Below, piece by piece: positions 2,220 through 6,399 of a stretch of DNA of 22,016 bases (position 1 is the stretch's first letter; each line of letters opens with the position of its first letter). The stretch is from a virus: UHGV virus genome UHGV-1354680; one strand, written 5' to 3'. The notes under the pieces are model-generated. The model was given only the letters and a program-made list of their open reading frames with translations. It was not told the DNA's origin and searched no databases. A program made the position numbers and the translations under genes.

Positions 2220-2975
2220 TTATTCAGAATCGATATCTTTTAAATCATCCTGAATCGCTTGCGCGTTCGGATTTTCCTGCGGTTTGAGTTCACCGCCATT
2301 AGCGATGAAATCATGACGCTGGAAGTACGCTTCACGCACCATAATATAAGGATCGGAGGACTGACGCAGCAGACCGTCGGAATCCAACAACTGCGCACGA
2401 GTTTCTATCCCTTCAAGCGTCCATTTACCCACAGACATCGGCCAGGTCAGCCAGGAAAGAACCGGGTAAAGACTATCCGCCATATCACCACCGTCATCAC
2501 GCAGCGTGAAGCTACCGTAGAACGGTAACTGAACGTACGGCCCATAACCCACACCATAATGACCAAGCGTACTACCGAAGCGGTGAGGTTCAGTCCGTTG
2601 CAGTTTCGGGTTCGCCATCCCTGCAACATCAATAAAGCCGCCCATTCCCAAAATGGTATTCAGGAAAAAGCGGGTAAAGTGGACCATCCCCTGATAAGGG
2701 TCGCCCTGCAAGAAGTAGTTAACCATCACCGCAGGTTCTTCAAGGTTGCCGGTAAAGTTGCTCAAACCGTTACGCGCAGGTTGCGGAACATAATCACGCC
2801 AGGCGACAGCGACCGGTCGAACAATATACGGGTCTAATACATTGAAGTTGAAGTTGTACATAGTGCGGTTAAACCCTTCTAACGGGTCAGAACGCCCTTG
2901 CTGATCTGTACCGGAACTCGCACACCCCACCAGAAGCGTAGTTCCCAGAGCAAGCGCCGACAGGCGAAGCTTCAT
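2220..2975 (-). CDS. mlaA: outer-membrane lipoprotein MlaA (VacJ), phospholipid asymmetry maintenance
   Basis: 251 aa with lipobox LLVGC after the signal peptide; translation matches remembered E. coli MlaA/VacJ. Confidence 0.9.
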   Translation of the reverse strand: MKLRLSALALGTTLLVGCASSGTDQQGRSDPLEGFNRTMYNFNFNVLDPYIVRPVAVAWRDYVPQPARNGLSNFTGNLEEPAVMVNYFLQGDPYQGMVHFTRFFLNTILGMGGFIDVAGMANPKLQRTEPHRFGSTLGHYGVGYGPYVQLPFYGSFTLRDDGGDMADSLYPVLSWLTWPMSVGKWTLEGIETRAQLLDSDGLLRQSSDPYIMVREAYFQRHDFIANGGELKPQENPNAQAIQDDLKDIDSE

Positions 2976-3268
2976 AAATGTCTCCCTGTTTTTTTATGGC
3001 TTATGCAGTTTGCCATCCATGACGGAACGATACCGTATCCGCCTGTTTAGGTGTGGGCGATTGTAACAGCACGTCAACTGATGTCCAGACGCCCTGATTT
3101 GCTGATTTGATCATAGCCTGGTAATCGCCGCCCTGTAGGCTACTTGATTCAATAGAAACAGAAAAAGGCAAACGCGGCCTTTTCTACATTTTCAGAGTAA
3201 CTCCCGCCAGTTGCGAGCAAAAAAGCCGCTACGCTTTAGCTATACGTGCTAATTCAAGAGAAGAGACC

Positions 3269-4201
3269 ATGGACAACGACAAAATTGATCAACACAGCGA
3301 CGAAATTGAAGTTGAGAGCGAAGAAAAAGAGCGCGGTAAAAAAATAGAAATAGATGAAGACCGACTCCCCTCCCGGGCGATGGCAATTCATGAGCATATC
3401 CGCCAGGATGGTGAAAAAGAGCTGGAACGCGACGCAATGGCGCTACTGTGGTCAGCCATTGCGGCGGGCCTGTCGATGGGCGCTTCGCTACTGGCAAAAG
3501 GGATATTTCATGTCGAACTGGAAGGCGTGCCGGGCAGCTTCTTGCTGGAGAATCTCGGTTATACCTTTGGTTTTATTATCGTCATAATGGCCCGCCAGCA
3601 ATTATTTACCGAAAACACCGTAACTGCGGTACTACCCGTCATGCAAAAACCGACAATGAGCAACGTCGGCTTACTTATGCGGTTATGGGGCATCGTGCTG
3701 CTGGGTAATATTCTCGGGACAGGTATTGCTGCGTGGGCATTTGAATATATGCCTATCTTCAATGAAGAAACTCGCGATGCATTTGTCAAAATCGGCATGG
3801 ATGTGATGAAGAACACCCCCAGCGAGATGTTTGCCAACGCGATCATTTCCGGCTGGCTGATCGCCACTATGGTATGGATGTTTCCTGCAGCGGGTGCGGC
3901 AAAGATTGTGGTGATTATATTGATGACCTGGCTTATTGCCCTGGGTGACACCACCCACATCGTTGTCGGTTCTGTTGAAATCCTCTATCTGGTGTTTAAC
4001 GGCACGCTGCACTGGAGCGATTTCATCTGGCCCTTCGCACTACCTACTTTAGCGGGGAACATCTGCGGCGGCACCTTTATCTTCGCGTTAATGAGTCATG
4101 CACAGATTCGTAACGACATGAGCAACAAGCGCAAAGCAGAAGCACGTCAAAAAGCAGAACGTGCGGAAAACATTAAGAAAAATGATAAAAACCCGGCATA
4201 A
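3269..4201 (+). CDS. yfdC: inner membrane protein YfdC, formate/nitrite transporter (FNT) family
   Basis: 310 aa with multiple hydrophobic segments and a charged N-terminus; sits between mlaA and argW as in the E. coli map. Confidence 0.8.
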   Translation: MDNDKIDQHSDEIEVESEEKERGKKIEIDEDRLPSRAMAIHEHIRQDGEKELERDAMALLWSAIAAGLSMGASLLAKGIFHVELEGVPGSFLLENLGYTFGFIIVIMARQQLFTENTVTAVLPVMQKPTMSNVGLLMRLWGIVLLGNILGTGIAAWAFEYMPIFNEETRDAFVKIGMDVMKNTPSEMFANAIISGWLIATMVWMFPAAGAAKIVVIILMTWLIALGDTTHIVVGSVEILYLVFNGTLHWSDFIWPFALPTLAGNICGGTFIFALMSHAQIRNDMSNKRKAEARQKAERAENIKKNDKNPA

Positions 4202-4276: not shown

Positions 4277-4351
4277 GTCCTCTTAGTTAAATGGATATAA
4301 CGAGCCCCTCCTAAGGGCTAATTGCAGGTTCGATTCCTGCAGGGGACACCA
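4277..4351 (+). tRNA. argW: tRNA-Arg (anticodon CCU)
   Basis: GTCCTCTTAGTTAAATGGATATAACGAGCCCCTCCTAAGGGCTAATTGCAGGTTCGATTCCTGCAGGGGACACCA. Acceptor stem GTCCTCT/AGGGGAC, anticodon loop CT-CCT-AA, T-arm GGTTCGATTCC, 3' CCA encoded. Confidence 0.9.
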
Positions 4352-4476: not shown

Positions 4477-4512
4477 GTGGATAAAATAATTTTACCCACC
4501 GGATTTTTACCC

Positions 4513-5670
4513 ATGCTCACTGTTAAGCAGATTGAAGCAGCAAAGCCGAAAGAAAAACCATACCGCCTTCTCGATGGTAATGGCCTGTACCTTTATGTCC
4601 CTGTGTCAGGGAAAAAGGTATGGCAGCTTCGCTACAAGATTGACGGTAAGGAGAAAATCCTGACCGTCGGAAAATATCCGCTTATGACTTTGCAAGAGGC
4701 AAGGGATAAAGCATGGACTGCGAGGAAAGACATCTCGGTTGGCATCGATCCGGTAAAGGCGAAAAAGGCTTCGTCTAACAACAATTCCTTTAGTGCGATT
4801 TACAAGGAATGGTACGAGCACAAGAAGCAGGTCTGGTCAGTAGGATATGCAACTGAACTTGCAAAAATGTTTGATGACGACATTTTACCTATCATCGGCG
4901 GTCTTGAGATTCAGGATATTGAGCCGATGCAACTGCTGGAAGTAATCCGCAGATTTGAAGATCGCGGCGCAATGGAGCGAGCCAACAAAGCACGCAGAAG
5001 ATGCGGCGAGGTTTTCCGTTACGCTATTGTCACCGGAAGGGCTAAATATAACCCGGCACCTGACCTTGCAGACGCCATGAAAGGATACCGCAAGAAGAAC
5101 TTCCCGTTTCTTCCTGCAGACCAGATCCCGGCATTCAACAAAGCACTGGCAACATTTTCAGGAAGTATCGTATCGCTCATTGCGACCAAAGTTTTACGCT
5201 ACACAGCCCTAAGAACAAAAGAGCTTCGTTCCATGCAATGGAAGAACGTCGATTTTGAAAACAGGATTATCACCATCGACGCCAGTGTGATGAAGGGACG
5301 CAAAATTCATGTGGTCCCGATGTCGGACCAGGTGGTTGAACTTCTCACTACGCTAAGCTCAATCACTAAACCAGTATCAGAGTTTGTTTTTGCCGGGCGC
5401 AACGATAAGAAGAAGCCAATCTGCGAGAACGCGGTACTGCTTGTGATCAAACAAATCGGCTATGAAGGTCTGGAAAGCGGTCACGGATTCAGGCATGAAT
5501 TCAGCACGATTATGAACGAGCACGAATGGCCCGCTGATGCTATTGAAGTGCAACTGGCACATGCCAACGGCGGATCTGTGCGCGGGATTTACAACCATGC
5601 TCAGTATCTCGATAAGCGCAGAGAAATGATGCAGTGGTGGGCGGATTGGCTTGATGAAAAGGTGGCATAG
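4513..5670 (+). CDS. intS: P4-type tyrosine integrase
   Basis: Translation MLTVKQIEAAKPKEKPYRLLDGNGLYLYVPVSGKKVWQLRYK… with a C-terminal catalytic region (…HGFRHEF…HANGGSVRGIYNHAQY). ATG at 4513 gives 385 aa, the length remembered for argW-associated IntS; the track start at 4477 is GTG. Confidence 0.85.
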   Translation: MLTVKQIEAAKPKEKPYRLLDGNGLYLYVPVSGKKVWQLRYKIDGKEKILTVGKYPLMTLQEARDKAWTARKDISVGIDPVKAKKASSNNNSFSAIYKEWYEHKKQVWSVGYATELAKMFDDDILPIIGGLEIQDIEPMQLLEVIRRFEDRGAMERANKARRRCGEVFRYAIVTGRAKYNPAPDLADAMKGYRKKNFPFLPADQIPAFNKALATFSGSIVSLIATKVLRYTALRTKELRSMQWKNVDFENRIITIDASVMKGRKIHVVPMSDQVVELLTTLSSITKPVSEFVFAGRNDKKKPICENAVLLVIKQIGYEGLESGHGFRHEFSTIMNEHEWPADAIEVQLAHANGGSVRGIYNHAQYLDKRREMMQWWADWLDEKVA

Positions 5671-5673
5671 CGC

Positions 5674-5746
5674 CACCTACATCCCTGGGCAATCATCAAA
5701 CTAACCTGCACGCGCATCGTTGATGATGTAGGTGATCACCACAAAT
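5674..5746. repeat. long imperfect inverted repeat
   Basis: cacctacatc…aatcatcaa // ttgatgat gtaggtg: 10-bp outer and 8-bp inner arms around a ~20-nt loop. No U-tract follows on either strand, so it is not a clear intrinsic terminator. Confidence 0.4.
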
Positions 5747-5769
5747 ACAGGTCGAGAAGTCTCAGAGGC

Positions 5770-6066
5770 CTAATTCTTGTCAGGAATCCTCTCCCTCTTT
5801 CCGTTATCCAGATTTTCCAGATGCGGTTGCGGGTATGTCAGGTAACGCTTAATTCTGAACTCACCATCAGTTGCACAAACCAGCAATGAGCCATCACATG
5901 GGTTCAAAGATGCATCAACGACAAAGAGAGCGCCACTTAGGATGCCTTCCCGGTAGTGTGTTGCCCCCGTTTTCATGAAGTAGGTAGCCACTGGCCTCGA
6001 TATGATACGCTTGTCGATCGATATGTGCTCCTCTATGCAGTCTTGTGCAGGACTGGGGAATCCCAT
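5770..6066 (-). CDS. UmuD'-like (S24 LexA/UmuD-fold) protein lacking the N-terminal arm and the serine nucleophile motif; ends at an in-frame TAG
   Basis: From the ATG at 6066: MGFPSPAQDCIEEHISIDKRIISRPVATYFMKTGATHYREG…DGEFRIKRY… is colinear with E. coli UmuD residues 25-100 (GFPSPAADYVEQRIDL…ATYFVKASGDSM…DGEFTVKKL). GGAGGT lies 5 nt upstream of this ATG. The 64 upstream codons of the 162-aa track ORF cover the SD and LexA box and are Y/H-rich, so they are treated as 5' UTR. Confidence 0.7.
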   Translation of the reverse strand: MGFPSPAQDCIEEHISIDKRIISRPVATYFMKTGATHYREGILSGALFVVDASLNPCDGSLLVCATDGEFRIKRYLTYPQPHLENLDNGKRERIPDKN

Positions 6067-6083
6067 GATGCACCTCCGATAAT

Positions 6084-6103
6084 CGCTGTATGCACATACA
6101 GTA
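6084..6103. promoter_or_regulatory. LexA box (SOS operator) upstream of the UmuD'-like gene
   Basis: CGCTGTATGCACATACAGTA has an exact CTGT-N8-ACAG core, centred about 28 nt upstream of the ATG at 6066 and next to a possible promoter (TTGAAC…AATAAT on the minus strand). Confidence 0.7.
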
Positions 6104-6294
6104 ATTATTTGTTGGTGGCGGAGTTCAACAAGAATGGAGTATGCTTTTGCTAAGCACGCGAATGCGTATAGGGAATTTTTTGAGTGGTAGAAGTACGAGT
6201 GTAAGACTGAATGATAGACACGCAAGACCATGGAGACTTGAATGTACATGGAAATCAATGAGACTCTAACTTTACCTACCTATAGGGGTCACTG

Positions 6295-6381
6295 ATGAAT
6301 AGCAAAATTGTAGTTGCAATTAACATCGTCGCGTTTTTGCTTCTGGTTTACTTCGTAAACAAGCACCACCCATTCATGTAG
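6295..6381 (+). CDS. hypothetical 28-aa hydrophobic peptide (candidate single-pass membrane peptide)
   Basis: ATG at 6295 preceded by AGGGGT with 5-nt spacing. Translation MNSKIVVAINIVAFLLLVYFVNKHHPFM, stop TAG 6379-6381. Below the 60-aa ORF-track cutoff; no homology evidence. Confidence 0.3.
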   Translation: MNSKIVVAINIVAFLLLVYFVNKHHPFM

Positions 6382-6399
6382 CCATCCATGGCTGCATCA

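What the first reader, a model, noticed from the sequence alone, without database searches (positions are those of the whole stretch)
6084..6103. Exact-core LexA box places a prophage cargo gene under SOS control
CGCTGTATGCACATACAGTA has the exact CTGT-N8-ACAG core, centred about 28 nt upstream of the UmuD'-like ATG and next to the only plausible -35/-10 pair on the minus strand. Expression of this gene would then rise with DNA damage. In some temperate phages LexA-boxed small genes are antirepressors (for example coliphage 186 Tum), so an alternative reading is an SOS-triggered regulator with a UmuD-like fold. The site sits at the late-gene end of the prophage, not in an immunity region.
Basis: partly seen in the sequence, partly recalled or inferred. 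Interest (0 to 1): 0.5.

Follow-up and report, generated by a model that had tools for sequence, protein, structure and literature searches.

The report
SOS box before truncated phage humD
The palindrome is very probably a real binding site for the DNA-damage repressor LexA, sitting where phage P1's humD (a ready-made UmuD' mutagenesis factor) has its annotated LexA site, but the gene it controls in this E. coli prophage carries two premature stop codons, so this is a known and here decaying arrangement.

Summary
Window 6084-6103 reads TACTGTATGTGCATACAGCG on the minus strand, centred 27 nt upstream of an ATG at 6066. My LexA matrix scores it 20.7 bits; the next best site in the window scores 8.7, and none of 300 random windows reached it.

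The gene is a HumD-family (UmuD'-like) gene: NCBIfam equivalog 145.8 bits against a cutoff of 120, and 62% identity to P1 HumD. All 57 related phage loci examined, plus P1, carry a LexA box. In 40 loci, counting the window itself, it lies about 27 nt before the ATG, inside a conserved cassette (-35 TTGATC, 17-18 nt, TACTGT, box, GGAGG, ATG). In 18 loci it lies ahead of a two-gene operon. The P1 reference record already annotates this LexA site at humD.

SOS control is therefore well supported by comparison, and it is a known arrangement. The antirepressor reading is not supported.

These remove the family's highly conserved C-terminus. Sister phages show further damage: an operator mutation, a Shine-Dalgarno mutation and a 489-bp deletion. 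The most likely reading is an SOS-regulated moron that is being lost. Interest is low.

The parts
6084..6103 (-). LexA operator (SOS box). It reads TACTGTATGTGCATACAGCG on the minus strand; the core CTGT-N8-ACAG spans 6086-6101.
   Evidence: Sequence. It is the only such core in the window. The matrix score is 20.7 bits against 8.7 for the next best site, and 0 of 300 random windows reach it. A box sits at the same position in 40 one-gene humD cassettes and in P1, where it is annotated as a LexA site.
6098..6103 (-). Inferred -10 hexamer TACTGT, which is the first half of the LexA box.
   Evidence: Inferred from family architecture: 31 of 37 non-redundant cassettes have a TTG-type hexamer (TTGATC in 29) 17-18 nt upstream of TACTGT. 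It matches TATAAT at only 3 of 6 positions, and no transcription start data are available.
6123..6128 (-). Inferred -35 hexamer TTGAAC, 19 nt upstream of TACTGT. The family norm is TTGATC at 17-18 nt.
   Evidence: Sequence conservation across cassettes begins abruptly at this hexamer. The window lineage has a deviant spacer length.
6109..6131 (-). Perfect inverted repeat TTGTTG-N11-CAACAA overlapping the -35 and spacer. Its role is unknown.
   Evidence: The family counterpart TTGATCG-N7-CGATCAA carries two GATC sites. A repeat of 6 or more occurs in 3.8% of shuffled 32-mers. It is broken in APC_JM3.2.
6073..6077 (-). Shine-Dalgarno sequence GGAGG, 6 nt before the ATG.
   Evidence: It is conserved in the cassette consensus and mutated to TGAGG in phage Huey.
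5770..6066 (-). Truncated humD (UmuD'-like) reading frame: ATG 6066-6064, 98 codons, amber stop 5772-5770.
   Evidence: NCBIfam HumD NF051876 scores 145.8 bits (cutoff 120) but covers only profile positions 1-97 of 129. PHROG 811. 62% identity to P1 HumD. APC_JM3.2 annotates the same 98-aa CDS.
5677..6066 (-). Ancestral 129-codon humD frame. Codon 99 (5772-5770) and codon 122 (5703-5701) are TAG where full-length homologues have Glu. The original stop is at 5679-5677.
   Evidence: The same frame continues after the first stop as ASETSRPVFVVITYIINDARAG*FDDCPGM*. This compares with P0003 ...DKNEASDTSRPVFGVITYIINDARSGEFDDCPVM and with HK639 and N15 DNA.
5652..5677 (-). Terminator-like hairpin (GGUGGC-GCUAU-GCCACC followed by UUUUC) directly after the ancestral humD stop. 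The integrase stop codon (5668-5670) lies in its loop.
   Evidence: Fold gives -16.4 kcal/mol, z = -1.7. N15 has an annotated rho-independent terminator at the same place. The generic terminator scan did not call it.
6400..8391 (-). Context: P22-type tailspike gene, upstream on the same strand as humD.
   Evidence: Pfam Head_binding 8.6e-66. Annotated as tail spike in Huey and APC_JM3.2.
4477..5670 (+). Context: IntS-type integrase, convergent with humD. tRNA-Arg(CCT) at 4277-4351 is the attachment site.
   Evidence: Pfam Phage_integrase. tRNA. 99% identity to the E. coli yfdC-argW-intS loci, ending at 5663-5665.

Best explanation
The 20-mer is the LexA operator of a self-contained humD 'moron' cassette: promoter, SOS box, Shine-Dalgarno sequence, a UmuD'-like gene and a terminator. 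The cassette sits between the tailspike and the integrase of a P22-like prophage integrated at argW in E. coli.

Proposed mechanism:
- In the lysogen, a LexA dimer binds 6084-6103. This covers the inferred -10 (TACTGT) and the start site, predicted near 6091 on the minus strand, so the promoter stays shut.
- DNA damage activates RecA, LexA cleaves itself, and the cassette is transcribed.
- In intact family members the product is HumD. This is a UmuD' look-alike made without the N-terminal 24 residues and without the catalytic serine, so it needs no RecA-mediated processing. P1 HumD can replace UmuD' alongside host UmuC.
- In this window the gene has two Glu-to-amber mutations, at codons 99 and 122. 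Induction would therefore yield a 98-residue product that lacks the conserved terminal beta-strand and tail, and that product is most likely inactive.

The locus is therefore an SOS-wired cargo gene caught in decay.

Shown here: the sequence, family membership, positional conservation of the box, the nonsense codons and the damage in sister phages. Inferred: LexA binding, the promoter hexamers and start site, and loss of function.
For: Operator:
- It scores 20.7 bits against 8.7 for the next best site, and 0 of 300 random windows reach it.
- It differs from my recalled recA box at 3 of 20 positions.

Family:
- NCBIfam HumD equivalog 145.8 bits against a cutoff of 120.
- 62% identity to P1 HumD.
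- UmuD' 1UMU at 1e-20, with UmuD Ser60 aligned to a His and Lys97 retained.

Conservation of the box:
- Among the window plus 57 related loci, 40 have a box about 27 nt before the ATG. Thirty-nine of these score at least 19 bits; APC_JM3.2 scores 14.5.
- The other 18 have a box of at least 19 bits 264-272 nt upstream, ahead of a two-gene operon.
- Only one other hit of at least 19 bits occurs in 186 kb of locus sequence.
- Flanks upstream of the -35 are unrelated between loci, and conservation begins at the -35 hexamer.
- The P1 reference record annotates a 'LexA binding site in the regulatory region of lxr and humD' 19 nt before the humD ATG, and states that HumD functionally complements UmuD'. 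PMC9603915 calls humD LexA-regulated.

Truncation and decay:
- TAG at codons 99 and 122 where full-length homologues have Glu, GAG in the two read as DNA (HK639, N15).
- The missing 31 residues include 9 invariant and 8 nearly invariant columns in a 40-sequence alignment. They align to the last strand of UmuD' and are predicted as strand 107-116, although that model is of low confidence.
- The allele deviates at 5 of 45 positions that are at least 95% conserved, against a family mean of 0.9.
- Sister phages: APC_JM3.2 has ACAG changed to GCAG in the box (score falls to 14.5), Huey has GGAGG changed to TGAGG, and CurroJimenez, Dewey and Louie have deleted the promoter, the box and about 64 codons while keeping both TAGs.
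- Independent pseudogenes exist elsewhere: BTP1 has TAA at codon 29, and the E. coli S163-2 copy is annotated 'frameshifted'.
Against: - There is no binding or expression data for this locus.
- The inferred promoter is weak: the -10 matches 3 of 6 positions, the spacer is 19 nt against the family's 17-18, and the generic promoter scan did not find it.
- The truncated allele occurs in at least four phage or prophage backgrounds with three different integrase modules, and in about 18 contigs of the protein collection. Some retained function therefore cannot be excluded.
- Substitutions among the copies are too few to measure selection: about 3 non-synonymous against 3 synonymous.
- The LexA matrix rests on sites recalled from memory.
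Confidence: 0.75

Rival explanations
1. The box is functional and the 98-residue product is also functional. It could act as a shortened UmuD' substitute, or as a new SOS-induced modulator such as a dominant-negative partner of UmuD/UmuD' or UmuC.
For: The truncated allele is shared at 98-99% identity by Huey, APC_JM3.2, an IMG/VR contig and this prophage, across three different integrase modules. It is seen on about 18 contigs. In the window the box, the Shine-Dalgarno sequence and the ATG are all intact.
Against: The lost C-terminus is the best conserved stretch of the family and corresponds to the final core strand of UmuD'. There is a second in-frame TAG downstream. Sister copies have lost the operator core, the Shine-Dalgarno sequence or the whole 5' two-thirds of the gene. 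The allele has excess changes at conserved positions.
Confidence: 0.12
2. The box mainly controls a divergent plus-strand transcript, as the P1 site is annotated to do for lxr. A candidate product is the 28-residue hydrophobic ORF at 6295-6381, which resembles LexA-controlled small toxins.
For: P1 annotates its site as shared by the divergent genes lxr and humD. A GATAAT hexamer lies just upstream of the box on the plus strand (6079-6084). A small hydrophobic ORF follows at 6295.
Against: Across the family, sequence on that side of the cassette is unrelated between loci, so no divergent partner is conserved. No -35 hexamer accompanies the GATAAT. The small ORF starts 192 nt from the box, has no PHROG hit, and its region is confined to this lineage.
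Confidence: 0.05
3. The gene is an SOS-triggered antirepressor or regulator with a UmuD-like fold, as in 186 Tum, the Gifsy antirepressors or N15 AntC.
For: LexA-boxed antirepressors exist in temperate phages (PMC3121763, title and abstract listed; 186 Tum and N15 AntC are from my own knowledge).
Against: The protein is a HumD equivalog and is 62% identical to P1 HumD, which the P1 record says complements UmuD'. It matches no antirepressor family in Pfam, NCBIfam or PHROGs. It lies at the tailspike/integrase junction, which is a moron site. It is truncated.
Confidence: 0.02
4. The palindrome is a chance match and LexA does not bind it.
For: The 16-bp core alone appears at least once in 28% of shuffled windows.
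Against: The full 20-mer score was reached by none of 300 random windows. A box occurs at a fixed position in 40 cassettes whose flanks differ, and in P1.
Confidence: 0.02

Closest known systems
Bacteriophage P1 humD with its annotated LexA site (NC_005856, 87545-87564 and 87584-87973)
   Same: The protein family is the same: 62% identity and the same MGFPSPA start. A 20-bp LexA box lies 19 nt (P1) or 17 nt (window) before the ATG, followed by a GAGG/GGAGG Shine-Dalgarno sequence. Both are accessory genes of a temperate phage.
   Different: P1 HumD is full length at 129 aa, while the window allele stops at codon 99. In P1 the site is annotated as shared with the divergent gene lxr, and the window has no lxr. 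P1 is a plasmid prophage; this is an integrated P22-like prophage.
N15 gp26, phiKO2 gp23, HK639 gp28 and HK140 gp28 (UmuD-like genes of linear-plasmid and lambdoid phages)
   Same: They are homologous at the DNA level at 66-75% identity. N15 and HK639 have a LexA box 24-27 nt before the ATG. All lie after the tail-fibre genes, next to the integrase or partition module.
   Different: These genes are intact at 128-132 aa. HK140-type loci place the box 264-272 nt upstream, ahead of an extra 79-aa gene, and have a divergent dinI.
E. coli umuDC operon (UmuD/UmuD', DNA polymerase V)
   Same: It has the S24 fold, is LexA-repressed through a box at the promoter, and its product partners UmuC in translesion synthesis (UmuD' 1UMU match at 1e-20; the function is from established knowledge).
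   Different: HumD lacks residues 1-24 and the Cys24-Gly25 cleavage site. It has His in place of the catalytic Ser60. No umuC partner gene is adjacent. It carries an extra conserved C-terminal tail, GEFDDCPVM.
BTP1 prophage umuD'-like pseudogene (Salmonella Typhimurium D23580)
   Same: It is also a P22-like phage, with the same cassette and a strong LexA box (26.7 bits) 27 nt before the ATG. It is also inactivated.
   Different: The lesion differs (TAA at codon 29). The cassette lies next to attP/thrW after gtrAC. It is not annotated as a gene in the record.

Membership tests
Gammaproteobacterial LexA operator (SOS box) | Palindromic core CTGT-N8-ACAG | tested here: met
   There is an exact core at 6086-6101, the only one in the window.
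Gammaproteobacterial LexA operator (SOS box) | The whole 20-mer resembles TACTGTATATATATACAGTA to the degree seen in validated sites | tested here: met
   It matches the consensus at 15 of 20 positions and scores 20.7 bits, within the 12.8-26.2 range of the training sites. None of 300 random windows reach it. The matrix was built from sites recalled from memory.
Gammaproteobacterial LexA operator (SOS box) | Overlaps or abuts the promoter of the regulated gene | tested here: inconclusive
   The position, 27 nt before the ATG, is conserved in 40 cassettes, and a conserved -35 lies 17-18 nt upstream of the box. The promoter is inferred only. The window lineage has a 19-nt spacer and the generic scan found nothing.
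Gammaproteobacterial LexA operator (SOS box) | Bound by LexA, with the gene derepressed on DNA damage in a lexA-dependent way | not testable with these tools
   This needs a gel shift or footprint and a reporter or RNA assay. For P1 humD, LexA regulation is stated in the record and in PMC9603915.
HumD family (NCBIfam NF051876, UmuD' analogues of phages) | Scores above the curated equivalog cutoff | tested here: met
   145.8 bits against a cutoff of 120.
HumD family (NCBIfam NF051876, UmuD' analogues of phages) | Starts at the residue equivalent to UmuD Gly25, with no N-terminal arm or cleavage site | tested here: met
   The sequence MGFPSPA aligns to UmuD' residue 1 (GFPSPA). A Shine-Dalgarno sequence precedes this ATG and the LexA box lies in the upstream 'extension'. 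All family members start here.
HumD family (NCBIfam NF051876, UmuD' analogues of phages) | Full length of about 128-129 aa, with the conserved C-terminus FGVITYIINDAR-GEFDDCPVM | tested here: not met
   The profile is covered only at positions 1-97 of 129. There are amber codons at positions 99 and 122. The locus is a truncated or pseudogenised member.
HumD family (NCBIfam NF051876, UmuD' analogues of phages) | Substitutes for UmuD' with UmuC in SOS mutagenesis | not testable with these tools
   This is reported for P1 HumD (note in the P1 record; McLenigan 1999 is cited but the paper is not held).
Self-cleaving S24 peptidases (LexA, UmuD, lambda CI) | Ser-Lys catalytic dyad and an Ala-Gly or Cys-Gly cleavage site | tested here: not met
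   UmuD Ser60 aligns to His37, and Lys97 is retained as Lys73. The cleavage site is absent because the protein begins after it.
LexA-controlled phage antirepressors (186 Tum, Gifsy GfoA/GfhA, N15 AntC) | Sequence or family relationship to a known antirepressor | tested here: not met
   Only UmuD-like, S24 or HumD families match in Pfam, NCBIfam and PHROGs.
LexA-controlled phage antirepressors (186 Tum, Gifsy GfoA/GfhA, N15 AntC) | Inactivates the prophage repressor on SOS induction | not testable with these tools

The most novel reading that the evidence does not exclude
The 98-residue amber-truncated HumD may be maintained rather than decaying. On this reading it is an SOS-induced fragment that keeps the N-terminal arm and part of the core, and acts as a modulator of host UmuD/UmuD'-UmuC assembly, for example as a dominant-negative brake on polymerase V. 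That would explain why one truncated allele is found in several P22-like phages with different integrase modules.
Probability: 0.06. Interest if true: 0.45.

Novelty: new member of a known kind. Interest (0 to 1): 0.15.

Why it matters
This is a further example of a pattern already annotated in P1: temperate phages of enterobacteria carry a pre-activated UmuD' analogue wired to the host SOS switch. The useful results here are two. First, the wiring holds in every case examined: all 58 loci analysed, the window among them, plus P1, have a LexA box, in one of two fixed architectures. Second, the gene is often broken, in this lineage, in BTP1 and in E. coli S163-2, which suggests its benefit is conditional. 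For annotation, this copy should be flagged as an internal-stop pseudogene, and the 159-aa ORF call that runs through the operator (Huey; protein cluster P0002) is wrong. None of this opens a new question.

Tried and rejected
- The generic sigma-70 and terminator scan of 5600-6500 found nothing at the box or after the gene. The promoter and terminator had to be inferred from family comparison and folding.
- An Rfam search of 5600-6500 at E <= 1 gave only a chance miRNA hit.
- A BLAST search of the 297-nt spacer 6104-6400 found only the same phage lineage.
- The 28-aa ORF has no PHROG match.
- The McLenigan 1999 HumD paper is not held. Literature searches for a phage UmuD-like gene with an SOS box, and for UmuD' C-terminal truncations, gave nothing directly usable.
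- The AlphaFold model of a full-length homologue had low confidence (mean pLDDT 63). I used it only as weak support for a terminal strand at 107-116 and did not take it to a fold search.
- Counting substitutions among the four near-identical copies to estimate selection gave too few events.
- The upstream inverted repeat might be a structural element, but a perfect repeat of 6 or more occurs in 3.8% of shuffles and several family members lack it, so this remains unexplained.
- The long 162-aa TTG ORF (5770-6258) was rejected as the gene. It runs through the operator and the Shine-Dalgarno sequence, and its extension has no homologue.

Full report
**Observation.** Window 6084-6103 is CGCTGTATGCACATACAGTA. 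On the minus strand it reads TACTGTATGTGCATACAGCG. The CTGT-N8-ACAG core at 6086-6101 is the only one in the 22-kb window. The core alone is weak evidence, because 28 of 100 shuffles contain one.

I scored the full 20-mer with a symmetrised position weight matrix built from 28 E. coli LexA sites. I recalled these sites from the literature (Lewis 1994; Fernandez de Henestrosa 2000), so absolute values are approximate. The site scores 20.7 bits, close to the median of the training sites. The next best position in the window scores 8.7 bits. None of 300 first-order Markov random windows reached 20.7; their maximum was 19.4. The site differs from the recA operator, as I recall it, at 3 of 20 positions.

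On the minus strand the box is followed by seven bases, then GGAGG (6077-6073), then six bases, then the ATG at 6066-6064. The box centre is 27 nt from the A of the ATG.

**What the gene is.**
- The frame from ATG 6066 to the TAG at 5772-5770 encodes 98 residues beginning MGFPSPAQD.
- It matches Pfam Peptidase_S24 at 1.3e-6.
- It matches the NCBIfam equivalog 'HumD family translesion DNA polymerase' at 145.8 bits against a cutoff of 120.
- It matches PHROG 811 'UmuD-like protein'.
- It is 62% identical to phage P1 HumD over 95 residues.
- A full-length relative matches the solved UmuD' structures (1UMU, 1e-20), starting at the first residue of UmuD'. UmuD Ser60 aligns to a His that is nearly invariant in the family, and Lys97 is kept.

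The product class is therefore a 'pre-cleaved' UmuD' analogue that cannot and need not self-cleave. The mechanical 162-aa ORF and the 159-aa annotation in phage Huey and protein cluster P0002 run through the Shine-Dalgarno sequence and the operator. They have no homologous N-terminus and are over-calls. APC_JM3.2 annotates the 98-aa version.

**Context.** The left 5.66 kb of the window is 99% identical to the E. coli fadL-yfcZ-mlaA-yfdC-argW-intS locus. tRNA-Arg(CCT) lies at 4277-4351, and an IntS-type integrase at 4477-5670. To the right, all on the minus strand, are a P22-type tailspike (Head_binding domain), a DNA-transfer protein (PHROG 770) and further large minus-strand ORFs out to the right-hand end of the window, which I did not annotate. 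The gene therefore sits in the tailspike-integrase gap of a P22-like prophage. From my own knowledge, this is the classic moron position, occupied by gtr genes in P22 and BTP1 and by oac in Sf6.

**Comparative test of the operator.** DNA and protein searches gave 57 related loci. These were Huey, APC_JM3.2, HK639, BTP1 and N15 from GenBank, and 52 IMG/VR contigs. The window was analysed with them, making 58 loci.
- In 40 of the 58, including the window, a LexA box lies just upstream of the ATG. The centre is at 27 nt in most, 24-31 nt in three, and 54 nt in one. Thirty-nine score at least 19 bits, and APC_JM3.2 scores 14.5 after a point mutation.
- The other 18 are of the HK140 type and lack a box there. 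Each has one of 19-26.5 bits 264-272 nt upstream, ahead of a small gene that forms an operon with humD and is divergent from a dinI homologue.
- In 186 kb of locus sequence there is only one further hit of at least 19 bits.
- Aligned on the box, non-redundant cassettes show no conservation until a TTGATC hexamer. Everything is then conserved through the box, ATCGGAGGTG and the ATG. Of 37 cassettes, 31 have a TTG-type hexamer 17-18 nt upstream of TACTGT: TTGATC in 29, TTGACG and TTGCAT in one each.

This is the signature of a portable promoter-operator-gene unit. TACTGT, the first half of the box, is the likely -10. The window lineage has TTGAAC with a 19-nt spacer, which is a deviant and probably weaker promoter.

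**Already known.** The P1 reference record annotates a protein_bind feature, 'LexA binding site in the regulatory region of lxr and humD', at 87545-87564. It lies 19 nt before humD, whose note says it functionally complements E. coli UmuD' and is 69% identical to N15 gp26. [quoted passage not shown] The experimental paper on HumD (McLenigan et al. 1999) is cited, but I could not read it. The arrangement in the window is therefore the P1 humD arrangement in a different phage type.

Full-length family members are 128-129 aa.
- In the window, homology continues in the same frame beyond the stop...IPDKN*ASETSRPVFVVITYIINDARAG*FDDCPGM*.
- The nearest full-length protein, P0003 (80% identical), reads ...LPDKNEASDTSRPVFGVITYIINDARSGEFDDCPVM.
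- Both stops are TAG where relatives have Glu, at codon 99 (5772-5770) and codon 122 (5703-5701). The Glu codon is GAG in the two relatives I read as DNA, HK639 and N15. The ancestral stop is at 5679-5677.
- The ancestral stop is followed directly by a terminator-like hairpin (5652-5677, -16.4 kcal/mol). The integrase stop codon lies in the loop of this hairpin.
- The missing 31 residues contain 9 invariant and 8 nearly invariant columns of a 40-sequence alignment.
- They align with the last beta-strand of UmuD'. A homologue model predicts them as strand 107-116, but with a mean pLDDT of only 63, so this is weak support.
- Within its first 98 residues, the allele departs from the family at 5 of 45 positions that are at least 95% conserved (R14H, L17I, A33T, L48F, R76L). 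The family mean is 0.9 and the maximum is 5.

**Sister phages.** The same two TAGs occur in Huey, APC_JM3.2 and IMG/VR contig 2778261689_000007 at 98-100% identity. They are therefore not sequencing errors. These copies show further damage:
- APC_JM3.2 has ACAG changed to GCAG in the operator, which lowers the score to 14.5.
- Huey has GGAGG changed to TGAGG.
- CurroJimenez, Dewey and Louie have a 489-bp deletion. It removes the promoter, the box and about 64 codons, and leaves the 3' third with both TAGs.

Other lineages are broken independently. BTP1 has TAA at codon 29, and the E. coli S163-2 copy is annotated 'frameshifted'.

Against simple decay, the truncated allele occurs with three different integrase modules and on about 18 contigs of the protein collection. 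The few substitutions among copies, about 3 non-synonymous against 3 synonymous, cannot discriminate between selection and drift.

**Mechanism proposed.** In the lysogen, LexA occupies 6084-6103 and blocks a weak sigma-70 promoter whose -10 lies inside the box. After DNA damage, LexA self-cleavage frees the promoter and a short-leader mRNA is made, with a predicted start near 6091. In intact relatives this supplies a UmuD' analogue immediately, without the RecA-dependent processing delay, to pair with host UmuC. Here it would yield a 98-residue fragment that is probably inactive. During lytic growth, read-through from the tailspike operon is also possible, because I found no terminator between 6400 and the cassette.

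The sequence, homology, positional conservation and lesions are shown here. LexA binding, the promoter hexamers, the start site and loss of function are inferred.

**Rivals.**
- A functional truncated protein, whether a UmuD' substitute or a dominant-negative modulator, is not excluded but is disfavoured.
- A divergent plus-strand target, by analogy with P1 lxr, is unlikely, because nothing on that side is conserved across the family.
- The antirepressor reading has no support.
- A chance match is excluded for practical purposes.

**Verdict.** The LexA box is very probably real, its interpretation as SOS control of a UmuD'-like cargo gene is sound, and the arrangement is already known from P1. 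This copy is a nonsense-truncated and probably dying member of the HumD family. Interest is low.

Noticed in passing
window 6295-6381 (+): A 28-codon ORF encodes a hydrophobic peptide (MNSKIVVAINIVAFLLLVYFVNKHHPFM). It lies between the humD promoter and the tailspike stop, on the opposite strand. It has no PHROG match, and the surrounding 297 nt occur only in Huey and APC_JM3.2. It could be a small membrane protein or toxin, or simply noise.
   Followed up: partly
window 6109-6131 (-): A perfect inverted repeat TTGTTG-N11-CAACAA overlies the inferred -35 and spacer. About 24 of 35 non-redundant family cassettes have a different repeat at the same place (TTGATCG-N7-CGATCAA, with two GATC Dam sites). 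Chance expectation for a perfect repeat of 6 or more is 3.8%. It is broken in APC_JM3.2 and absent in N15 and HK639. Its function is unknown.
   Followed up: partly
L059 (HK140) 2991-3971; L012-L025, L031, L042, L044, L056: There is a second architecture for humD. The gene is translationally coupled to a 79-aa upstream gene (gp27), the LexA box lies 264-272 nt upstream of humD ahead of that gene, and a dinI homologue is divergently transcribed.
   Followed up: partly
window 5687-5747; one search hits H35-H43: The last 60 nt or so of humD occur as isolated remnants beside the integrase or attP in many lambdoid and P22-like phages, including mEp234, Sf101, HK544 and E212. In HK140 the annotated 'putative attP' overlaps the humD 3' end. 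This looks like a module-exchange junction.
   Followed up: no
window 5652-5679: The convergent integrase and ancestral humD share a single hairpin. The integrase stop codon (5668-5670) lies in its loop, and the ancestral humD stop (5677-5679) is at its base. Homology to E. coli intS loci ends at 5663-5665, inside the hairpin.
   Followed up: partly
L057 (CurroJimenez_Bas106) 2440-2760; also Dewey and Louie: These phages carry a 489-bp deletion relative to the window. It joins the sequence just after the tailspike stop to humD codon ~65 at a short GTGC microhomology. The remnant keeps both amber codons.
   Followed up: yes
L003 (BTP1) 2520-2910 (-): BTP1 carries an unannotated humD pseudogene (TAA at codon 29) with a near-consensus LexA box (26.7 bits), next to the thrW-like attP core. 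The record instead annotates an opposite-strand hypothetical protein there (BTP1_017 / STMMW_03931).
   Followed up: partly
window 8293-8391 (-): The mechanical tailspike ORF starts 32 codons upstream of the Head_binding domain, with a signal-peptide-like extension ([24 protein letters not shown]). APC_JM3.2 annotates the shorter start ([13 protein letters not shown] at 8295), and Huey annotates the longer one.
   Followed up: no
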